A stretch of 64,000 nt of DNA, taken from NCBI RefSeq assembly GCF_016026235.1, contig NZ_CP065613.1; one strand, written 5' to 3'. Below, piece after piece: positions 27,733 to 62,008 of this stretch. The notes under the pieces were generated by a model. The model did no database searches. It worked only from the letters and a program-made list of their open reading frames with translations, and had not been told where the DNA came from. A program made the translations under genes and the position numbers. Every line of letters starts with the position of its first letter. Within the stretch, counting starts at the first letter, position 1. The stretch is from Escherichia coli (GTDB lineage: Bacteria; Pseudomonadota; Gammaproteobacteria; Enterobacterales; Enterobacteriaceae).

Positions 27733-28005
27733 TTTTTCAAATTGTGTGATTAAATAATTGAACATTAATGATGATTTATAGCATCATTATTCTATAACAT
27801 GAATAAACGGATTGAATGTGTTATGTTAAAAATGAGTTTATACGTAATAATATTGTTATTTCCCTTTCAGATTAGTGCAGCCATTACTAGCAAGGAAAGT
27901 GAGGTTGTTTCACCATTATTAATGGATGTTAATTCTTCACTAACAATGGAAAATATTTCTGAATTATCCACATCATCGGAACCATCGCAACAGGGGGTAT
28001 TTCCC

Positions 28006-29297
28006 TGAGGGATCCCCAGAAAATTTAGTAAACCATTATCATATTGGTATACCGTTGCTGTAGAACTTTCAGCCCTGCGTCAAGTGACAGTGTGTTTAGT
28101 ATGAGTGGAGAATGTCGAATCACATTCTCCGCCAGTTTTAATAACGAGATGACTCGCCTGTGCTTCACTGTATTTGCCTGATATTTATGATGTATCCCTT
28201 TGTTTTCCAGGCTGAAACCGCTTAACCACATAATGATACTGGCTAATGTTGCGATCAGACTCAATACCGTGACCCGCCCGGATGAATGACTGGCACCAAA
28301 CCGTAGTCCAAATCCCCAGCGAGGATTTTTTTCATCCCTGAAATTTTGCTCAATTTGCATTCTACGGCTGTATAATTTCATTACCTGTTTTGGCGAGAAC
28401 TCAGTACTGTTTGTGAAAATAAACCATGGTGATTTCCCGGCAGTACGAGCTTTAGCCGTCACCGATGGTCTGGTTGCTCTTTCCTTCGAGCGTTTAAATC
28501 TACGACCTTTAGGCTTACTTTTATAAAGATAAAAATGCCCTTCATGTTGTGCATTTTTATCTCGACCCAGCAGGCCTTCACCTAAATAAATTGCTGTCGT
28601 TGATGCTTTTGTGCCTGAGTCCGACACCTTTTCCCAGCCATTACCAACATTGTAATAATGATTGCCCAGTACCCGGCAAATATAGGTCCAGCCACGGGAG
28701 CGGAGCTGTTGGAACCATCGCCCCTGAAAACCGGCATCTGTAATAACAATGACATCAGTCCCGGGGGAAAAGCACTCAGCAAGCGATTCCAGAAAACGCT
28801 CATGTACATCTGCATTCGCTGTCTGTGATGATGGAACGACACAACTCATCAACGGTAAAGAACGCCCGTCACATGCCAGGCTTGCCCGCAAAAGCTGAAA
28901 ACGAGAGGCATGATAAGCACTCCAGTCAATGAGTATCACAACACGAGACATTCCCCGCGTAATCTTTTGGGTAATTCGCTGAAAAATGGTGGAAACCTCA
29001 TTTTGCAAATGTCGATTCCCCAACAGTCGATCCACCCGCTTTATTTTGTTTTTAACTGATGCCGTACCGGTTAAATGACGCCCGATACTGGTAAGTGTGA
29101 GGGAAGCGCCATTTATTACAGCATTAGTTGCGTCAATCAGTGATTTTTGACGGTAAAGATGCAAAGGGGCCAGTATATTGTTAAGGAAATTTTGGCATAA
29201 TGAACGTGCAGGCATAGTGGTGATCTCCTTGAAATTGTTAGCACAATCAATTAGATCACATCTCACTATGCCTGTCTTGTTTTCTGGGGATTCCTCA
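28006..29297 (-). mobile_element. IS4-family-like insertion sequence, copy 1 (intact), approx 1292 bp
   Basis: Terminal inverted repeats TGAGGGATCCCCAGAAAA / TGAGGAATCCCCAGAAAA; 11-bp direct repeat GGGGTATTTCC at 27994-28004 and 29298-29308; single transposase ORF. Confidence 0.8.
28025..29215 (-). CDS. IS transposase (intact)
   Basis: Track ORF 28025..29266; start placed at ATG 29215 (MPARSLCQNFLNN...) with RBS AAGGAG, matching the start in copy 2. Confidence 0.8.
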   Translation of the reverse strand: MPARSLCQNFLNNILAPLHLYRQKSLIDATNAVINGASLTLTSIGRHLTGTASVKNKIKRVDRLLGNRHLQNEVSTIFQRITQKITRGMSRVVILIDWSAYHASRFQLLRASLACDGRSLPLMSCVVPSSQTANADVHERFLESLAECFSPGTDVIVITDAGFQGRWFQQLRSRGWTYICRVLGNHYYNVGNGWEKVSDSGTKASTTAIYLGEGLLGRDKNAQHEGHFYLYKSKPKGRRFKRSKERATRPSVTAKARTAGKSPWFIFTNSTEFSPKQVMKLYSRRMQIEQNFRDEKNPRWGFGLRFGASHSSGRVTVLSLIATLASIIMWLSGFSLENKGIHHKYQANTVKHRRVISLLKLAENVIRHSPLILNTLSLDAGLKVLQQRYTNMIMVY

Positions 29298-53954: not shown

Positions 53955-54767
53955 TTACCCAAACGCCTCTACAATCACCATCGCCGCCCGTTCTCCCGCT
54001 TTGCCATCCATAAACGCATCGCAATAATGATGGCGAATTTCCGCCAGCTTCGTCTGCACCGCCCCCCAGTCAAACGCCTCTGACAGCAAATAACGCAGTT
54101 CCGCGACATTATGAGCCACCGGCAATATTTCGCGAATCCGCTGGTCGGCGCTCTCTGCCGTGGAGTAACTTTTCTCACCGTCGAGCAAATCATTCATGCC
54201 CGGAAAGTCGAGCAGGATCACCCGCTTATCAACGTGGATAGCATCGAAAATAAAACCGCTGTTATCGGTCAGCACGTAATCGGCCTTTGCCAGTAGCGCC
54301 AGCGTGTGGCGGGCGGAGTCGGTGCGCTGTTTTAAGTGCCTGCGCGCCAGGGCCAGCGATGCGGCTTCTTCCGGGCGTGAGCAGGTGCCGTGGTGCAGTT
54401 TGCAAATCAGGTTCACATCACCGCTTAAGCGGCCCAATTTTTCTGCCCAGTGGGGCAGGGAGCTTAGTGCGCCAAACGTTGGGGCGTAGAGCACCGTAGG
54501 TTTACGGTCATCCAGTTCGATATTTCTCGGCAACGCGCGATCAAACGTGCCGTTATGCCAGGCGTCGAAGCGCGGGTTGCCGACCACTTTTGCGCTGCCG
54601 AAATGTTCCAGCGCCTGCTGGCTGTAGTGGCTGTAACACAAAATGCGCTGATAAAAACGGTTCCAGTCGGCGTGGTTCCACGTCTCTTTAGCTAAGCCGT
54701 ACATAGCGCGGACGTTCACCGCTGCCAGGCCATTGAGTATGGCGTGTGGTAGGGGCTGACCAGGCAT
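53955..54767 (-). CDS. CDP-glycerol glycerophosphotransferase (TagF/TagB-like) C-terminal region
   Basis: 270 aa with TagF-family blocks GNPRFD, VLYAPTF, KLHH, YVLTDNSGFIFDAIHVDKRVILLD. Confidence 0.65.
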   Translation of the reverse strand: MPGQPLPHAILNGLAAVNVRAMYGLAKETWNHADWNRFYQRILCYSHYSQQALEHFGSAKVVGNPRFDAWHNGTFDRALPRNIELDDRKPTVLYAPTFGALSSLPHWAEKLGRLSGDVNLICKLHHGTCSRPEEAASLALARRHLKQRTDSARHTLALLAKADYVLTDNSGFIFDAIHVDKRVILLDFPGMNDLLDGEKSYSTAESADQRIREILPVAHNVAELRYLLSEAFDWGAVQTKLAEIRHHYCDAFMDGKAGERAAMVIVEAFG

Positions 54768-56392
54768 TTCACTCGCAGGCCGTGTGCCTGCATTGCCGAT
54801 AAGTGCATTCCTTTAAGCTGCGGGTCGTCGATGCTTTTTAGCGTTGCCAGCATCTCATCAAGAAACGGTTTAAACACGCGGTCGTTGATCACCAGCGTGC
54901 AGCTCTGCCCCTGCGCCTGTAGCGCGGTGATGATTGGGCGGTAGAGCGCGTAGTGGAAGGAGGTTTCCATAAAAAAGCCGATGGTGTCGGCGATGGGTAA
55001 TGCGGATGGCTTTGTGGCTACGGGTAACTTATTGAAATAGTGACCAATGTTGTCAGTCGCTTTTTTCTCTATATCGCTAAAGCCCGGTCGCTGATAACTA
55101 AGGCTCGGATAACAGGCCAGCCATTTGTCGGCGCGTAGCAGCGGCTGCCAGCAGGCTTCCAGCGAGTGCTCATCGTTGCTCATCTGCTGCGCCAGTTGCG
55201 GGTAGTAGCGGCTGTTCACCAGATAAGCGCATACCTTGCGGCAGTCCCGCGCGTGCACCAGCCCCGGCAAACTTTTTAGCATCGTTCCCTGCGAAATTTC
55301 GCCGCCAAGGATCATCACCTGCCAGGGAATTTTCGCCAGGCTCGCCAGCAGCGTGTTCAGCACCTGAATATGTTTCTCCTGCTTGAGAATAACCGCGTCA
55401 TCTTCCAGCAGCAGGTAGTTTTGCCAGCTGTGCTGTTGCGCCAGGCGCAGCGCCTGCAAGTGTGAATGGCGGCGGCCCCGTTGACCGTTTTCATCTTCAT
55501 TGGCGGCAAGGCGGGTGATCTTCTCGGGTGGAATATGCAGCAGTGCCAGTTCTTCACGGATCTGCTGTAAGCGATCCGGGCGTTTATCCAGATTCACGAT
55601 GACCACCTGATCAATCGCCTGATGGTTGATTGCCTGGTGATGAGTGGCGTTATGCAGACTCAGATAAGCGTTGCGTAGCAGCGGATCGCTGACGATGTCG
55701 CTCAGTTCGGCGTTTACAGGCGTGCTGGCCCCGAGAATAAAGTCTTTATCAAAGGTGTTGTGGCTGTGCGAGATACACAGAATCGTGCGCTCGCCGGGCA
55801 ACTGCAGCGGGTTAACGCTGAAATTGTTGGTGAAACTTTTCTCTTCGCTCAGATTGCAATCGTCATCGTAACGGTGCTTTTTCAGGTAGTTACAGTGATA
55901 GCAAAAGGTGCCGTTGAGGATGTTATGCGGGCCAAAGCTGCGGCTTTGAAAGATACGGTTGATATGGCTGTACCAGATGGGGATCTGGTCAGAACCGGAG
56001 ATGAGCGCCCGGTGTTTTTGCATTATGGCGATGGTGTAAGAGATTTTATCTGCCGGGTAGTAGTCGTCGTCATCCATGCAGAGGATATATTCGCCGCGCG
56101 CCAGTTCGTTGAGCATATTGCGTTTTTTGCCCAGCGGCAGTTTTTCCGGGTGATGGATGTAGCGGATGTTGAAGGACTCCGGCGTGCCATTGGTCAGGCG
56201 GTCGATGATGTGTTGATGGCTTTGCGGGGAGTCGTCGAGGATGACCAGTTCGCGGTGATCTGCCGGGTAGTCCTGATAGCGGTACATGTAGAGCAGGTAC
56301 GGCAGGAATGTGGCACGGTTCCAAGTTGGCGTGACGACGCTCACGAAGGGTTTTTCGCGGTGAGTAGCGAGTGTTTTGATGATGGTTTGCAT
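54716..56392 (-). CDS. Multidomain glycosyltransferase (GT2-like N-terminus, GT25-like middle, TagF-like tail)
   Basis: 558 aa; GT2-type start (VSVVTPTWNRATFLP...ILDDSP, DDD), central VVIVNLDKRPDRL block; overlaps the downstream TagF-like ORF by 52 nt in another frame. Confidence 0.6.
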   Translation of the reverse strand: MQTIIKTLATHREKPFVSVVTPTWNRATFLPYLLYMYRYQDYPADHRELVILDDSPQSHQHIIDRLTNGTPESFNIRYIHHPEKLPLGKKRNMLNELARGEYILCMDDDDYYPADKISYTIAIMQKHRALISGSDQIPIWYSHINRIFQSRSFGPHNILNGTFCYHCNYLKKHRYDDDCNLSEEKSFTNNFSVNPLQLPGERTILCISHSHNTFDKDFILGASTPVNAELSDIVSDPLLRNAYLSLHNATHHQAINHQAIDQVVIVNLDKRPDRLQQIREELALLHIPPEKITRLAANEDENGQRGRRHSHLQALRLAQQHSWQNYLLLEDDAVILKQEKHIQVLNTLLASLAKIPWQVMILGGEISQGTMLKSLPGLVHARDCRKVCAYLVNSRYYPQLAQQMSNDEHSLEACWQPLLRADKWLACYPSLSYQRPGFSDIEKKATDNIGHYFNKLPVATKPSALPIADTIGFFMETSFHYALYRPIITALQAQGQSCTLVINDRVFKPFLDEMLATLKSIDDPQLKGMHLSAMQAHGLRVKCLVSPYHTPYSMAWQR

Positions 56393-57092
56393 GATATGTT
56401 TACGAAGTAGATAAGGCCGGGAAAAACCGGCCTGAAAGCGTTAGCAAGGTAGCAGCGAAAACGCATAAAGCAGCGGCTCTGCGCAACATTCAGCCTGAAT
56501 TTGTTGGCGAATCAGCAGCGCATTTTCACTCTCTCGCCAGCGTTCAAACATGGCAAAGAGGGCGAAAATATCCTCCTGCCGCAGCGGAGAACCATCCAGC
56601 GTCCATAAACTGATTAACGTGCGGAGGAGATAAAAATCGCACACCAGCGGGAAATAATCCGCCCCGTCAGTCTGCCCAATCATATCGTGGTAAACGCGGT
56701 AAATCAGCCAGTTACGCATCATCCAGGGCGCGGTGGCAAAATGCTGTTGCCAGGTGGTTTGCCACTGCGTCTGAAGCTGCTGTTGTAACAGGGCTTCGCT
56801 GTTGGCGTCATGCAGCGTCAGTAAAGTAACCTGCAACGGCAGCGAGGCTTTGCGCGGGCTTTCCGGCAAAATCGACCAGTCAAACGCACAACCGCCGAGC
56901 AGCGTCATCAACTGGCGCGCCAGCTGTGGCACGGGTGGGAGCTGGGCGTACTGTGCCTGTAGCGTACCTTTTTTCGCATGATCGGCCAGCGCCTGTGGCA
57001 GCGTCGTCAAACGGGCCAGGATGTCTCCGTCTCTGCCCGGCATTTTGCTGGCGCGGGAGAGCAAAATCCCGACAGCATACAGGGAAAGCTCC

Positions 57093-58383
57093 TGAGGAAT
57101 CCCCAGAAAACAAGACAGGCATAGTGAGATGTGATCTAATTGATTGTGCTAACAATTTCAAGGAGATCACCACTATGCCTGCACGTTCATTATGCCAAAA
57201 TTTCCTTAACAATATACTGGCCCCTTTGCATCTTTACCGTCAAAAATCACTGATTGACGCAACTAATGCTGTAATAAATGGCGCTTCCCTCACACTTACC
57301 AGTATCGGGCGTCATTTAACCGGTACGGCATCAGTTAAAAACAAAATAAAGCGGGTGGATCGACTGTTGGGGAATCGACATTTGCAAAATGAGGTTTCCA
57401 CCATTTTTTAGCGAATTACCCAAAAGATTACGCGGGGAATGTCTCGTGTTGTGATACTCATTGACTGGAGTGCTTATCATGCCTCTCGTTTTCAGCTTTT
57501 GCGGGCAAGCCTGGCATGTGACGGGCGTTCTTTACCGTTGATGAGTTGTGTCGTTCCATCATCACAGACAGCGAATGCAGATGTACATGAGCGTTTTCTG
57601 GAATCGCTTGCTGAGTGCTTTTCCCCCGGGACTGATGTCATTGTTATTACAGATGCCGGTTTTCAGGGGCGATGGTTCCAACAGCTCCGCTCCCGTGGCT
57701 GGACCTATATTTGCCGGGTACTGGGCAATCATTATTACAATGTTGGTAATGGCTGGGAAAAGGTGTCGGACTCAGGCACAAAAGCATCAACGACAGCAAT
57801 TTATTTAGGTGAAGGCCTGCTGGGTCGAGATAAAAATGCACAACATGAAGGGCATTTTTATCTTTATAAAAGTAAGCCTAAAGGTCGTAGATTTAAACGC
57901 TCGAAGGAAAGAGCAACCAGACCATCGGTGACGGCTAAAGCTCGTACTGCCGGGAAATCACCATGGTTTATTTTCACAAACAGTACTGAGTTCTCGCCAA
58001 AACAGGTAATGAAATTATACAGCCGTAGAATGCAAATTGAGCAAAATTTCAGGGATGAAAAAATCCTCGCTGGGGATTTGGACTACGGTTTGGTGCCAGT
58101 CATTCATCCGGGCGGGTCACGGTATTGAGTCTGATCGCAACATTAGCCAGTATCATTATGTGGTTAAGCGGTTTCAGCCTGGAAAACAAAGGGATACATC
58201 ATAAATATCAGGCAAATACAGTGAAGCACAGGCGAGTCATCTCGTTATTAAAACTGGCGGAGAATGTGATTCGACATTCTCCACTCATACTAAACACACT
58301 GTCACTTGACGCAGGGCTGAAAGTTCTACAGCAACGGTATACCAATATGATAATGGTTTACTAAATTTTCTGGGGATCCCTCA
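57093..58383 (+). mobile_element. IS4-family-like insertion sequence, copy 2 (mutated), inverted relative to copy 1
   Basis: Same inverted repeats as copy 1; 11-bp direct repeat GGGAAAGCTCC at 57082-57092 and 58385-58395. Confidence 0.8.
57175..58364 (+). pseudogene. IS transposase pseudogene (nonsense codon plus 1-bp deletion)
   Basis: Relative to copy 1: CAG to TAG at approx 57410 and an A6 run where copy 1 has A7 (approx 58066-58071); track shows three ORF pieces. Confidence 0.75.
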
Positions 58384-58802
58384 GGGGAAAGCTCCGGGGT
58401 TAAATCACGGAGCGTGAGGGTACTCAAAATCACCTGGTTTACTATCGCATCGCGCGCGGAAAGCTCTGCGGAATTATCTTCCACAGGGCGGTAGGTGAGC
58501 TGTAAATCAAAGGCCCTGACATCGTTGAGCACCGCTTCGCAGCTGGCAATATCGGTCAATGACAGGCTCAGGCGAATCTCGTTTTTCCACACCTTGCGGA
58601 CGTATAAAGGCGAACCGGGGTGACGCGCTAAAAATTTGCGCACGTATTCCGGTTCGTAACATTCAATAAAACTCATAGGTGGCTTCCAGTCTTTAATGCT
58701 GTGCAGGATATGCAATAAGCGTGCCGGGGATTTTTGTAATTAAAAACAAGGGATTGGAAATCAGGCGGAAAATCCATTTCCGCTATGGGGAAGGTATTCG
58801 CG

Positions 58803-59231
58803 TTATTCCTGATAGAGAAAATCTGCTTCGCTGCCTAAAAACGACTGAATAAATTCATACTGGCGAATCAACAGCTCGCCGTTTTTATCGTTGTAGGCTT
58901 TGCAGCGTTCCGCTTTTTGCTCAAGGCGTTGCCACAACTGCTGTGCTGCCGCTTTTTGTACCGCAGGAAGCCAGGCAAATACCTGCGCCAGACCGTCACG
59001 ATTTACGCTAACACCGAGCATTTTCAGCAGGCTGTGCCGTTGATGGCTATGTCCATGCAACTGCTCATAGTGATGCATTATCTCCTCGTTTACTGCCAGC
59101 AGCTCCTCGCTGGCGCGGCGAATCATGCAGATCCGCTGGCGCTGGAGACGTTCGCGCAGGGAATCATACAGCGCGTCGTCGTCACGAATTCCCTGCAGCA
59201 ACGCCTTCACCTGTTGTAACCGGATACTCAC
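58803..59231 (-). CDS. lfgN: Lateral flagellar chaperone FlgN-like
   Basis: 142 aa helical protein downstream of flgM homolog; mainly positional. Confidence 0.5.
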   Translation of the reverse strand: MSIRLQQVKALLQGIRDDDALYDSLRERLQRQRICMIRRASEELLAVNEEIMHHYEQLHGHSHQRHSLLKMLGVSVNRDGLAQVFAWLPAVQKAAAQQLWQRLEQKAERCKAYNDKNGELLIRQYEFIQSFLGSEADFLYQE

Positions 59232-59243
59232 TTCATCGGCCTC

Positions 59244-59522
59244 TTAGTTCTGGAAAAAACTCAGCATGTCGCTGGCTAACTGTTCGGTGTTCACTTGCGG
59301 GCTGCCGGAGGCCAGCATCGCCTGCATTTGCGCCACTTTGTCGCTGTCGATATCGCTCTCTTGCTGGTCGTTCAGCGTTTGCTGGGCAGACTGCAATCCC
59401 GCCTGAGTAATGTCGTCGGCGCTCAGCGCCGTGGTGGTGGTCGCCGTGCTTTTGGGCGGCTGGCTGGCGCCTGCCGTCGTGGCTGTCGGGCGATTGCCTG
59501 GCATAGTCGGGGTGATTTTCAT
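59244..59522 (-). CDS. lfgM: Anti-sigma-28 factor FlgM-like
   Basis: 92 aa, Ser/Thr/Gln-rich with FlgM-like C-terminal helix; between flgA and flgN homologs. Confidence 0.55.
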   Translation of the reverse strand: MKITPTMPGNRPTATTAGASQPPKSTATTTTALSADDITQAGLQSAQQTLNDQQESDIDSDKVAQMQAMLASGSPQVNTEQLASDMLSFFQN

Positions 59523-60759: not shown

Positions 60760-61191
60760 ATGTCATTTACTGATATCTATCAGATTTCCGGCTCGGCGAT
60801 GACGGCGCAAACGCTACGTTTGAATACCGTTGCCAGTAACCTGGCGAATGCCAATGCGCCCGCCAGCAGCGAGGCGCAGGCGTATAAAGCGCGCAGCCCA
60901 GTGTTTGCGGCGGTGTATCACCACAGCTTGCTGGCGGGAACGCATCGCCATGCGATCGACGGTGCCAGCGTGCAGGTGCAGGACGTGCTGCAAACCGGCG
61001 GGGCGGTGAAACGCTATGAACCGCATTCGCCGCTCGCCGATGCTAACGGCGACGTCTGGTATCCCGACGTCAACGTGGTGGAACAGATGGCGGACATGAT
61101 GTCGGCCTCGCGCGATTTCGAAACCAATGTCGATGTGCTCAACAACGTGAAAAGTATGCAGCAAAGTTTGCTGAAACTGGGAGAAGCCTGA
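60760..61191 (+). CDS. lfgC: Lateral flagellar rod protein FlgC homolog
   Basis: 143 aa; FlgC-conserved N- and C-terminal blocks. Confidence 0.85.
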   Translation: MSFTDIYQISGSAMTAQTLRLNTVASNLANANAPASSEAQAYKARSPVFAAVYHHSLLAGTHRHAIDGASVQVQDVLQTGGAVKRYEPHSPLADANGDVWYPDVNVVEQMADMMSASRDFETNVDVLNNVKSMQQSLLKLGEA

Positions 61192-61904
61192 TGAATACCC
61201 TGGCGCTGAATGCGCAATCGCCGCAACCCACCGCCACGGCGGAAAGCAATAATGTGGCGGCCAGCGACACGACAAGCAGCAGCGATAGCTCGCCCGTCGA
61301 TACTTTCCTGACGCTGTTTGTCGCCGAGATCCAAAACCAGGACCCGACTGACCCGACCGACGCCACCGAATATATCGACCAGCTTTCGTCGATGGCGCAG
61401 GTGGCGATGATGGAAGAGATGAGTGTGCAGGCCAACACCAACGCGGTGCTGATGAGCAACATCCAGGTGATGGCGCTCGGTAACCTGGTGGGCGACGACA
61501 TTATGGTGCAGACCACCGCCTTGCAGGTGAGCGACCAGACCATAAATGGTCGCGCTACGCTGGACGACGCCTGTACCACCGCCGATCTCCACTTTACCGA
61601 TGCCGCAGGCGATGACTACACCGTCTCGCTGATCCCGGAAGGCAGTTCGTCCGTCGGGCCAGGGCAGGTGGATTTCTCGGTGAACCCTGCCGATTACGGT
61701 ATCCCGCCGGGCGATTACGACGTTTCGGTGGTCACCAATACCGGGGAAGAAGAGGTGCCGATTGAAGTGTCCGGCGAAGTGGAAGATGTGCGCATCCCGC
61801 TCGACGGCAGCTCTCCGGTGCTCAACGTTGCAGGCGTGGGCGAAGTGCCGTTCACCATGATTAGCCAGTTTGGCGTACCCGATGCCGACAGTAATGTAGC
61901 GTGA
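61191..61904 (+). CDS. lfgD: Lateral flagellar hook-cap protein FlgD homolog
   Basis: 237 aa; FLTLFVAEIQNQDPTDP motif typical of FlgD. Confidence 0.75.
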   Translation: MNTLALNAQSPQPTATAESNNVAASDTTSSSDSSPVDTFLTLFVAEIQNQDPTDPTDATEYIDQLSSMAQVAMMEEMSVQANTNAVLMSNIQVMALGNLVGDDIMVQTTALQVSDQTINGRATLDDACTTADLHFTDAAGDDYTVSLIPEGSSSVGPGQVDFSVNPADYGIPPGDYDVSVVTNTGEEEVPIEVSGEVEDVRIPLDGSSPVLNVAGVGEVPFTMISQFGVPDADSNVA

Positions 61905-61919
61905 TGTCCGGTGCCAAAT

Positions 61920-62008
61920 AGCCTGATGCGCTTCGCTTATCAGGCCAACACCAAAGTTATCGCCACCAGCACGCAGCTCGATGACGCGCTGTTCCAGGCA
62001 ATGTAATG
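61920..62008 (+). other. REP-like palindrome plus approx 20-codon coding remnant where lfgE is expected
   Basis: GCCTGATGCGCTTCGCTTATCAGGCC followed by an in-frame ...NTKVIATSTQLDDALFQAM-stop that overlaps the lfgF ATG as TAATG. Confidence 0.45.

What the first reader, a model, noticed from the sequence alone, without database searches (positions are those of the whole stretch)
56441..58715. IS insertion interrupts a flagellar variable-region gene; precise excision restores one ORF
Removing 57093-58383 and one copy of the 11-bp duplication GGGAAAGCTCC joins the two flanking ORFs in frame (...LTPELSLYAVGILLSRASKMPG...) into an approx 320 aa protein of unknown function, located between the glycosyltransferases and flgN. 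The insertion is therefore recent enough that the target gene is otherwise undamaged.
Basis: seen in the sequence. Interest (0 to 1): 0.45.

Follow-up and report, generated by a model that had tools for sequence, protein, structure and literature searches.

The report
ISEc60 insertion splitting lateral-flagellar lafV gene
A known mobile element (ISEc60) has jumped into lafV, a putative flagellin-methylase gene of the E. coli secondary (Flag-2) flagellar locus; this is an ordinary gene knockout in a locus that had already lost its hook gene.

Summary
The element occupies window 57093-58384 (1292 bp). It has 20-nt terminal inverted repeats and is flanked by GGGAAAGCTCC at 57082-57092 and 58385-58395. 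Removing 1303 nt (not 1291+11) restores a stop-free 310-aa ORF.

The element is ISEc60 (IS4 family, 99.8% identical to named copies). The target is not of unknown function. It is lafV, the FliB-like putative flagellin lysine-N-methylase of Flag-2 variable region 1.

A near-identical genome, E. coli FDAARGOS_943, has the empty site with one copy of the 11-mer and a lafV 100% identical to the reconstruction. In total 1278 of 5426 complete E. coli genomes carry uninterrupted lafV.

- The same insertion occurs in other public assemblies, so it marks a lineage rather than a single isolate.
- A different haplotype (97% identical flanks) carries ISEc60 at the same nucleotide in the opposite orientation. 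The site is therefore a recurrent target and fits the GGG-N5-CCC pattern seen at 13 other ISEc60 sites.
- This copy's transposase gene has a premature stop, plus a possibly artefactual frameshift.
- The Flag-2 locus was already defective: lfgE is deleted and the neighbouring glycosyltransferase is frameshifted.

This is ordinary IS-driven decay.

The parts
57093..58384 (+). ISEc60 copy (IS4 family), 1292 bp; other copies are 1293 bp
   Evidence: 99.8% identity over its full length to annotated ISEc60 elements. Aligned with three other copies.
57093..57111 (+). Left terminal inverted repeat (IRL), TGAGGAATCCCCAGAAAAC
   Evidence: Inverted repeat I1, 20 nt, 95% complementary; sequence read.
58366..58384 (+). 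Right terminal inverted repeat (IRR), TTTTCTGGGGATCCCTCAG
   Evidence: I1.
57175..58364 (+). Transposase pseudogene. It has CAG->TAG at 57409-57411 (codon 79) and a 1-nt deletion in an A-run at about 58057, just after the YREK motif. The intact protein is 396 aa.
   Evidence: Alignment and translation against intact copies. Pfam DDE_Tnp_1 9e-20 on the 229-aa middle ORF. The TAG is shared with assembly UGFA01000002.1, the A-run deletion is not.
57082..57092 (.). Target-site duplication, left copy, GGGAAAGCTCC
   Evidence: A single copy is present at the empty site in FDAARGOS_943.
58385..58395 (.). Target-site duplication, right copy, GGGAAAGCTCC
58385..58676 (-). lafV 5' fragment (codons 1-97). 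The ORF reads on into IRR and stops at 58326, giving a 116-aa fusion product.
   Evidence: ORF list. The exact 116-aa product is in public data as STL99644.1.
56441..57092 (-). lafV 3' fragment (from codon 95 to the stop)
   Evidence: ORF list and reconstruction. Pfam FliB_C is recorded on this fragment in the public assemblies.
58803..59231 (-). lfgN (FlgN chaperone), immediately upstream of lafV on the same strand
   Evidence: Pfam FlgN 3.9e-18; annotation of sister genomes.
54716..56392 (-). VR1 GT2 glycosyltransferase immediately downstream of lafV. A 1-nt deletion at 54740 truncates it to 558 aa; it is 814 aa elsewhere.
   Evidence: Pfam Glycos_transf_2; comparison with FDAARGOS_943; 814-aa versions.

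Best explanation
A copy of ISEc60 transposed into codon 98 of lafV. ISEc60 is a DDE-transposase element of the IS4 family. lafV is the FliB-like putative flagellin lysine-N-methylase gene in variable region 1 of the E. coli Flag-2 (lateral flagella) locus.

Staggered cuts 10-11 bp apart at the target GGGAAAGCTCC were filled in, producing the flanking duplication (inferred from the anatomy and from general IS biology). The gene is split into a 97-codon head fused to 19 IS-encoded codons and a promoterless tail of roughly 200 codons, so LafV is knocked out.

The site is a preferred ISEc60 target of the form G-run, short spacer, C-run. It has been hit at least twice independently.

The event post-dates the split from the FDAARGOS_943 lineage and is fixed in a small clone. 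It is probably selectively neutral, because the Flag-2 hook gene lfgE had already been deleted.

The inserted copy later lost its own transposase to a nonsense mutation. It can now move only in trans. It could be lost only through rare host-mediated recombination between the duplicated 11-mers.
For: Shown:
- IS identity 99.8%.
- DDE domain and IS4-family model.
- Terminal inverted repeats and an 11-bp duplication at 1303-nt spacing.
- In-frame restoration.
- Empty site with a single GGGAAAGCTCC, and lafV 100% identical, in FDAARGOS_943, whose flanks are about 99.95% identical.
- 1278 of 5426 complete genomes carry an uninterrupted lafV.
- Identical junctions in independent assemblies GCA_900449985.1 and GCA_001907395.1.
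- Opposite-orientation ISEc60 at the same nucleotide in GCA_036860915.1, on a 97%-identical haplotype.
- 13 other ISEc60 sites share the GGG-N(3-5)-CCC pattern with 10-12-bp duplications.
- lfgE is deleted in both the window and FDAARGOS_943.
- The nonsense codon is private to this copy among 5426 genomes but shared with the NCTC assembly.
- IS insertions in flag-2 loci, and LafV as a FliB orthologue, are described in PMC6993521.
Against: - The LafV methylase function is inferred only. The NCBIfam FliB equivalog scores 44 bits against a cut-off of 85 and covers only profile positions 107-368. The local Pfam copy gives no hit.
- Neutrality is an inference from the lfgE deletion. Genes beyond the window end (lafA and others) were not examined.
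- Two disabling lesions in a supposedly young IS copy are more than the background divergence of about 0.06% predicts. One of them (A6 versus A7 at 58057) may be an assembly error.
- Whether the donor copy was already defective is unknown.
Confidence: 0.92

Rival explanations
1. One ancestral insertion, not a hot spot. The window lineage and the L013 lineage inherited a single old lafV::ISEc60, which later inverted or spread by recombination.
For: Both lineages have the junction at the same nucleotide. Only one junction of the second lineage was seen, because the contig ends inside the IS.
Against: - The flanks differ by about 3% (101 mismatches in 3311 nt), whereas FDAARGOS_943, at 99.95% identity to the window, has the empty site.
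- Use of the same site in both orientations is seen at two unrelated ISEc60 sites as well: L024 versus L025, and L016/L018/L019, the latter with different duplication lengths.
Confidence: 0.06
2. Adaptive knockout. Loss of LafV (flagellin methylation) was selected, which would explain the recurrence.
For: Two independent hits in the same gene. IS-rich, Shigella-like genomes often show pathoadaptive gene loss (my own knowledge). Some carriers are labelled Shigella boydii.
Against: - Both hits are at exactly the same nucleotide, in a sequence that matches the element's general target pattern. That points to insertion bias rather than selection.
- In the window lineage the hook gene lfgE was already gone (shared with FDAARGOS_943), so LafV had no filament to modify.
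- The sister strain carries other IS hits, in the glycosyltransferase and flgH, which fits random decay.
Confidence: 0.05
3. Assembly artefact. A multi-copy IS was misplaced into lafV by the assembler.
For: The window shows homopolymer-type single-base discrepancies (58057). There is another ISEc60 copy in the window.
Against: - Independent short-read contigs from GCA_001907395.1 run from unique flank into both IS ends with 100% identity.
- A perfect 11-bp duplication flanks the element.
- This copy carries a private substitution.
Confidence: 0.01

Closest known systems
ISEc60 (IS4 family insertion sequence of E. coli, as named in RefSeq/PGAP annotation)
   Same: 99.8% nucleotide identity over the whole element. 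Same terminal repeats, the same 396-aa DDE transposase frame, and 10-12-bp target duplications.
   Different: This copy is 1 nt shorter and its transposase gene has a premature TAG at codon 79. It is a non-autonomous copy.
LafV / FliB flagellin lysine-N-methylase (Flag-2 VR1; De Maayer et al. 2020, PMC6993521)
   Same: Position between the VR1 glycosyltransferase and lfgN. 310 aa, like the 308-315-aa homologues in Escherichia, Citrobacter, Pseudocitrobacter and Phytobacter, which carry the Pfam FliB_C domain and are named lysine-N-methylase.
   Different: It matches only the C-terminal two-thirds of the FliB equivalog model and scores below its cut-off. No methylase activity has been shown for LafV; PMC6993521 says this needs experimental confirmation.
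IS186 hot-spot insertion (for example the lon promoter; saiSree et al. 2001, cited in PMC3861542)
   Same: Strong preference for a G-run/spacer/C-run target, duplications of about 10-12 bp, and repeated independent hits at one site. The flanks of IS186A in K-12 read GGGGATCACTCCCC.
   Different: The transposases are barely alignable: only the YREK segment aligns, E = 0.008. The resemblance lies in behaviour, not in close kinship.
IS-mediated decay of enterobacterial flag-2 loci (PMC6993521; PMC11420993)
   Same: IS1, IS4, IS5 and other transposases disrupt flag-2 genes, and gene deletions are common. The window shows both.
   Different: The paper names lfgF and lfiG as the commonly disrupted genes. 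Recurrent lafV disruption is not mentioned in the passages read.

Membership tests
ISEc60 / IS4-family insertion sequence | Near-identity of the whole element to named ISEc60 copies | tested here: met
   99.8% over 1292 nt to elements annotated 'IS4-like element ISEc60 family transposase'.
ISEc60 / IS4-family insertion sequence | DDE transposase (DDE_Tnp_1) with the IS4-family Y-x2-R-x3-E-x6-K motif | tested here: met
   PF01609 9e-20. NF033591 transpos_IS4_2 scores 360 bits against a cut-off of 152 on the intact sister copy. YSRRMQIEQNFRDEK is visible in the translation.
ISEc60 / IS4-family insertion sequence | Terminal inverted repeats and a flanking target-site duplication, with a matching empty site | tested here: met
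   20-nt inverted repeat, 95% complementary. 11-bp duplication. Single-copy empty site in FDAARGOS_943.
ISEc60 / IS4-family insertion sequence | Intact transposase ORF (autonomous element) | tested here: not met
   TAG at codon 79 and a 1-nt deletion at about 58057. The TAG is confirmed in a second assembly; the deletion is not.
FliB flagellin lysine-N-methylase (NCBIfam NF038110 equivalog) | Whole-protein score above the curated cut-off (85 bits) | tested here: not met
   44.2 bits, E = 1.7e-11.
FliB flagellin lysine-N-methylase (NCBIfam NF038110 equivalog) | Coverage of the N-terminal ~106 model positions | tested here: not met
   The match spans profile positions 107-368 of 373 only. The 125-nt gap to lfgN leaves no room for a longer N-terminus.
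LafV (Flag-2 VR1 FliB-like protein) | FliB_C domain and a length of about 310 aa | tested here: met
   Homologues of 308-315 aa all carry precomputed PF27117 FliB_C. The local Pfam copy lacks that model.
LafV (Flag-2 VR1 FliB-like protein) | Location in VR1 between lfiJ and lfgN of a flag-2 locus | tested here: met
   Gene order FliJ ... VR1 glycosyltransferase - lysine-N-methylase - FlgN - FlgM - FlgA in sister genomes. Definition taken from PMC6993521.
LafV (Flag-2 VR1 FliB-like protein) | Lysine N-methylation of lateral flagellin | not testable with these tools
   Needs mass spectrometry of LafA in lafV+ and lafV- strains.
IS186-like target selection | G-run / short spacer / C-run target, 10-12-bp duplication, recurrent hits at one site | tested here: met
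   13 distinct ISEc60 sites. lafV hit in both orientations. IS186A flanks for comparison.
IS186-like target selection | Close relatedness of the transposase to IS186 InsL | tested here: not met
   BLASTP aligns only 22 residues around YREK, E = 0.008.

The most novel reading that the evidence does not exclude
ISEc60 recognises a specific G-run/C-run (hairpin-like) target so precisely that lafV is a recurrent entry point in either orientation. Insertion, together with rare precise loss between the 11-bp duplications, could then act as a crude on/off switch for lateral-flagellin modification in lineages whose Flag-2 system still works.
Probability: 0.03. Interest if true: 0.4.

Novelty: already known. 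Interest (0 to 1): 0.12.

Why it matters
It matters little beyond bookkeeping.

- It shows that the split ORFs at 56441-58715 are one pseudogenised lafV and should be annotated as such.
- The junction gives a clean clonal marker for this E. coli lineage.
- It documents that ISEc60, like IS186, has a strong G-run/C-run target preference that produces identical independent insertions. That is a caution against reading shared IS junctions as proof of common descent.
- It adds another example of IS-driven erosion of the Flag-2 locus in IS-rich, Shigella-like E. coli.

Tried and rejected
- Pfam on the reconstructed protein gave no family, because the local copy lacks FliB_C.
- A 120-bp junction query found no complete E. 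coli genome with this insertion. The insertion was found only through exact protein look-ups of the fusion products.
- I searched for an ISEc60 copy sharing this copy's two defects, as a possible donor. None was found among 5426 genomes; the best hit was 99.7%.
- The promoter and terminator scan of 56300-59300 gave counts close to the shuffled expectation and no convincing outward promoter.
- Kinship of ISEc60 with IS186 was rejected by BLASTP.
- The saiSree 2001 paper itself is not held. The exact published IS186 consensus is therefore not quoted and is only illustrated by the K-12 IS186A flanks.
- Papers mentioning ISEc60 only list it and were not pursued.
- I did not predict a LafV structure, because it would not change the verdict on the insertion.

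Full report
**Observation.** Window 56441-58715 holds two minus-strand ORFs, 58326-58715 and 56441-57064. They are separated by a block with plus-strand transposase-like ORFs.

GGGAAAGCTCC occurs only twice in the window, at 57082-57092 and 58385-58395. These copies directly abut a 1292-bp block at 57093-58384. The ends of that block form a 20-nt, 95% complementary inverted repeat.

From the ATG at 58676 the restored gene is 933 nt, or 310 aa.

The duplication can also be read as 10 bp if the element ends are CTGAGG...CCTCAG. One sister copy fits only that reading. The total to remove is 1303 nt in either case.

**Identity of the element.** It is 99.8% identical over its full length to elements annotated 'IS4-like element ISEc60 family transposase', for example in strains FDAARGOS_943 (up to 38 places in its chromosome) and CFSAN029787.
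- Its middle ORF hits Pfam DDE_Tnp_1 at 9e-20.
- An intact sister copy scores 360 bits on NCBIfam transpos_IS4_2.
- The translation shows the YREK motif.

Compared with three other copies, this one has two private lesions. One is C->T at 57409, turning Gln79 into TAG. The other is loss of one A from an A7 run at about 58057, which shifts the frame just after the YREK motif. No ISEc60 copy in 5426 complete E. coli genomes shares either lesion.

The NCTC-type assembly UGFA01000002.1 is identical to the window over 8.35 kb except that it has A7 there. The nonsense mutation is therefore real. The frameshift may be a homopolymer error in one of the two assemblies.

**Identity of the target.** Sister genomes annotate the intact gene as 'lysine-N-methylase' or 'hypothetical protein'. 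It lies between a VR1 glycosyltransferase and flgN-flgM-flgA of the secondary flagellar locus.

De Maayer et al. 2020 (PMC6993521) call these FliB orthologues LafV. They place them in Flag-2 variable region 1, between lfiJ and lfgN, in 342 of 592 flag-2 loci. They also note that IS1, IS4, IS5 and other transposases commonly disrupt flag-2 genes.

Homologues of 308-315 aa in Escherichia, Citrobacter, Pseudocitrobacter and Phytobacter carry the Pfam FliB_C domain. The assignment to FliB proper is weak, however. The NCBIfam FliB equivalog gives 44 bits against a cut-off of 85 and aligns only to profile positions 107-368. LafV therefore corresponds to the C-terminal part of FliB, and its activity is untested.

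**Empty site and age.** E. coli FDAARGOS_943 matches the window at about 99.95% over roughly 60 kb. Its lafV is uninterrupted, 100% identical to the reconstruction, and contains a single GGGAAAGCTCC.

The two strains differ almost only in IS content.
- The sister strain carries ISEc60 in the glycosyltransferase and in flgH. It also has an IS5-family element, IS21 in tssC, IS600 and IS1A.
- The window has none of these. Instead it has its own two ISEc60 copies, at 28005-29297 and 57093-58384.

The insertion therefore post-dates a very shallow split. It is not unique to one isolate, though.
- The exact 116-aa LafV'-IS fusion product is on 12 contigs in public assemblies.
- Short-read contigs of GCA_001907395.1 run into both IS ends with 100% identity. 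This also excludes misassembly.
- No complete genome in the 5426-genome set has the junction.
- 1278 complete genomes have intact lafV.

**A recurrent target.** Protein MEG9067906.1 (P0124) reads LTPELS followed by PEESPENKTGIVRCDLIDCANNF, which is the left end of ISEc60.

Its contig (L013) places the IS left end at exactly the nucleotide where the window has the right end. The flank there is only 96.95% identical to the window and 99.7% identical to a different haplotype. Draft contigs with 100% identity to that flank end inside the same 11-mer in many samples, and some carriers of these fragments are labelled Shigella boydii. This is a second, independent insertion.

Thirteen other ISEc60 sites collected from complete genomes show the same kind of target. 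Examples are GGGATATCCCC, GGGAAAATCCCC, GGGTTTCCCCC, GGGAGATCACC and GAGACTGCTCC. That is a G-run, 3-5 mostly A/T bases, then a C-run, with duplications of 10-12 bp.

Two further sites are also used in both orientations or with different stagger: L024 versus L025, and L016/L018/L019.

This resembles IS186, which has a published hot spot and consensus target (saiSree 2001, cited in PMC3861542). The flanks of IS186A in K-12 read GGGGATCACTCCCC. The two transposases align only around the YREK motif, so this is a likeness in behaviour and not close kinship.

**Consequence.** LafV is cut after codon 97 of 310.

The gene lies downstream of lfgN and 48 nt upstream of the glycosyltransferase on the same strand, so a polar effect is possible. 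That glycosyltransferase is already frameshifted at 54740, a lesion shared with two other assemblies of this lineage.

More importantly, the hook gene lfgE is missing. 32 nt at 61906-61937 replace 1217 nt of the reference haplotype, and FDAARGOS_943 shares this deletion, so it predates the insertion.

The most likely reading is neutral IS-driven decay of an already disabled locus, steered to this nucleotide by the element's target preference. The promoter and terminator scan gave nothing above the shuffled expectation.

**Verdict.** The case is ordinary: a named IS in a named accessory gene, of a kind already described for flag-2 loci. The only mildly new points are the recurrent same-nucleotide use of the lafV site and the G-run/C-run target pattern of ISEc60.

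Noticed in passing
window 28005-29297 (- strand): A second ISEc60 copy, 1293 bp, with an intact 396-aa transposase and the duplication GGGGTATTTCC. The site is empty in FDAARGOS_943, where it lies inside a gene annotated 'integrating conjugative element protein'.
   Followed up: partly
window 61905-62005: The Flag-2 hook gene lfgE is deleted. 32 nt (61906-61937) replace 1217 nt of the AHM8C212RI haplotype, leaving FlgD (61191-61904) next to FlgF (from 62006). FDAARGOS_943 shares the deletion, so it is older than the IS insertions.
   Followed up: partly
window 54740 (glycosyltransferase, - strand, 53.9-56.4 kb): A 1-nt deletion relative to FDAARGOS_943 truncates the VR1 GT2 / glycerophosphotransferase-like protein to 558 aa; it is 814 aa in other haplotypes. 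The same lesion is present in GCA_001907395.1 and GCA_900449985.1, so it is real rather than a sequencing error.
   Followed up: partly
window 2451-28000 compared with L003: The type VI secretion cluster is collinear with FDAARGOS_943 but lacks that strain's IS21 (in tssC), IS600 (next to a vgrG fragment) and IS1A insertions. The two near-identical strains have undergone separate IS expansions.
   Followed up: no
L024 vs L025; L016, L018, L019: ISEc60 sits at the same hairpin-like sites in opposite orientations or with different duplication lengths. One site is the CS1-fimbrial/TcfC intergenic AAGGGAGGGCTACCCCTCCCTT. The other is the plasmid site GGCGGGGAAAATCCCCGCC, with duplications of 12, 11 and 12 bp. 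This indicates strong target specificity.
   Followed up: partly
window 58057 vs L005: The only difference between the window and assembly UGFA01000002.1 over 8.35 kb is A6 versus A7 in the transposase gene. This is probably a homopolymer error in one of the two assemblies.
   Followed up: no
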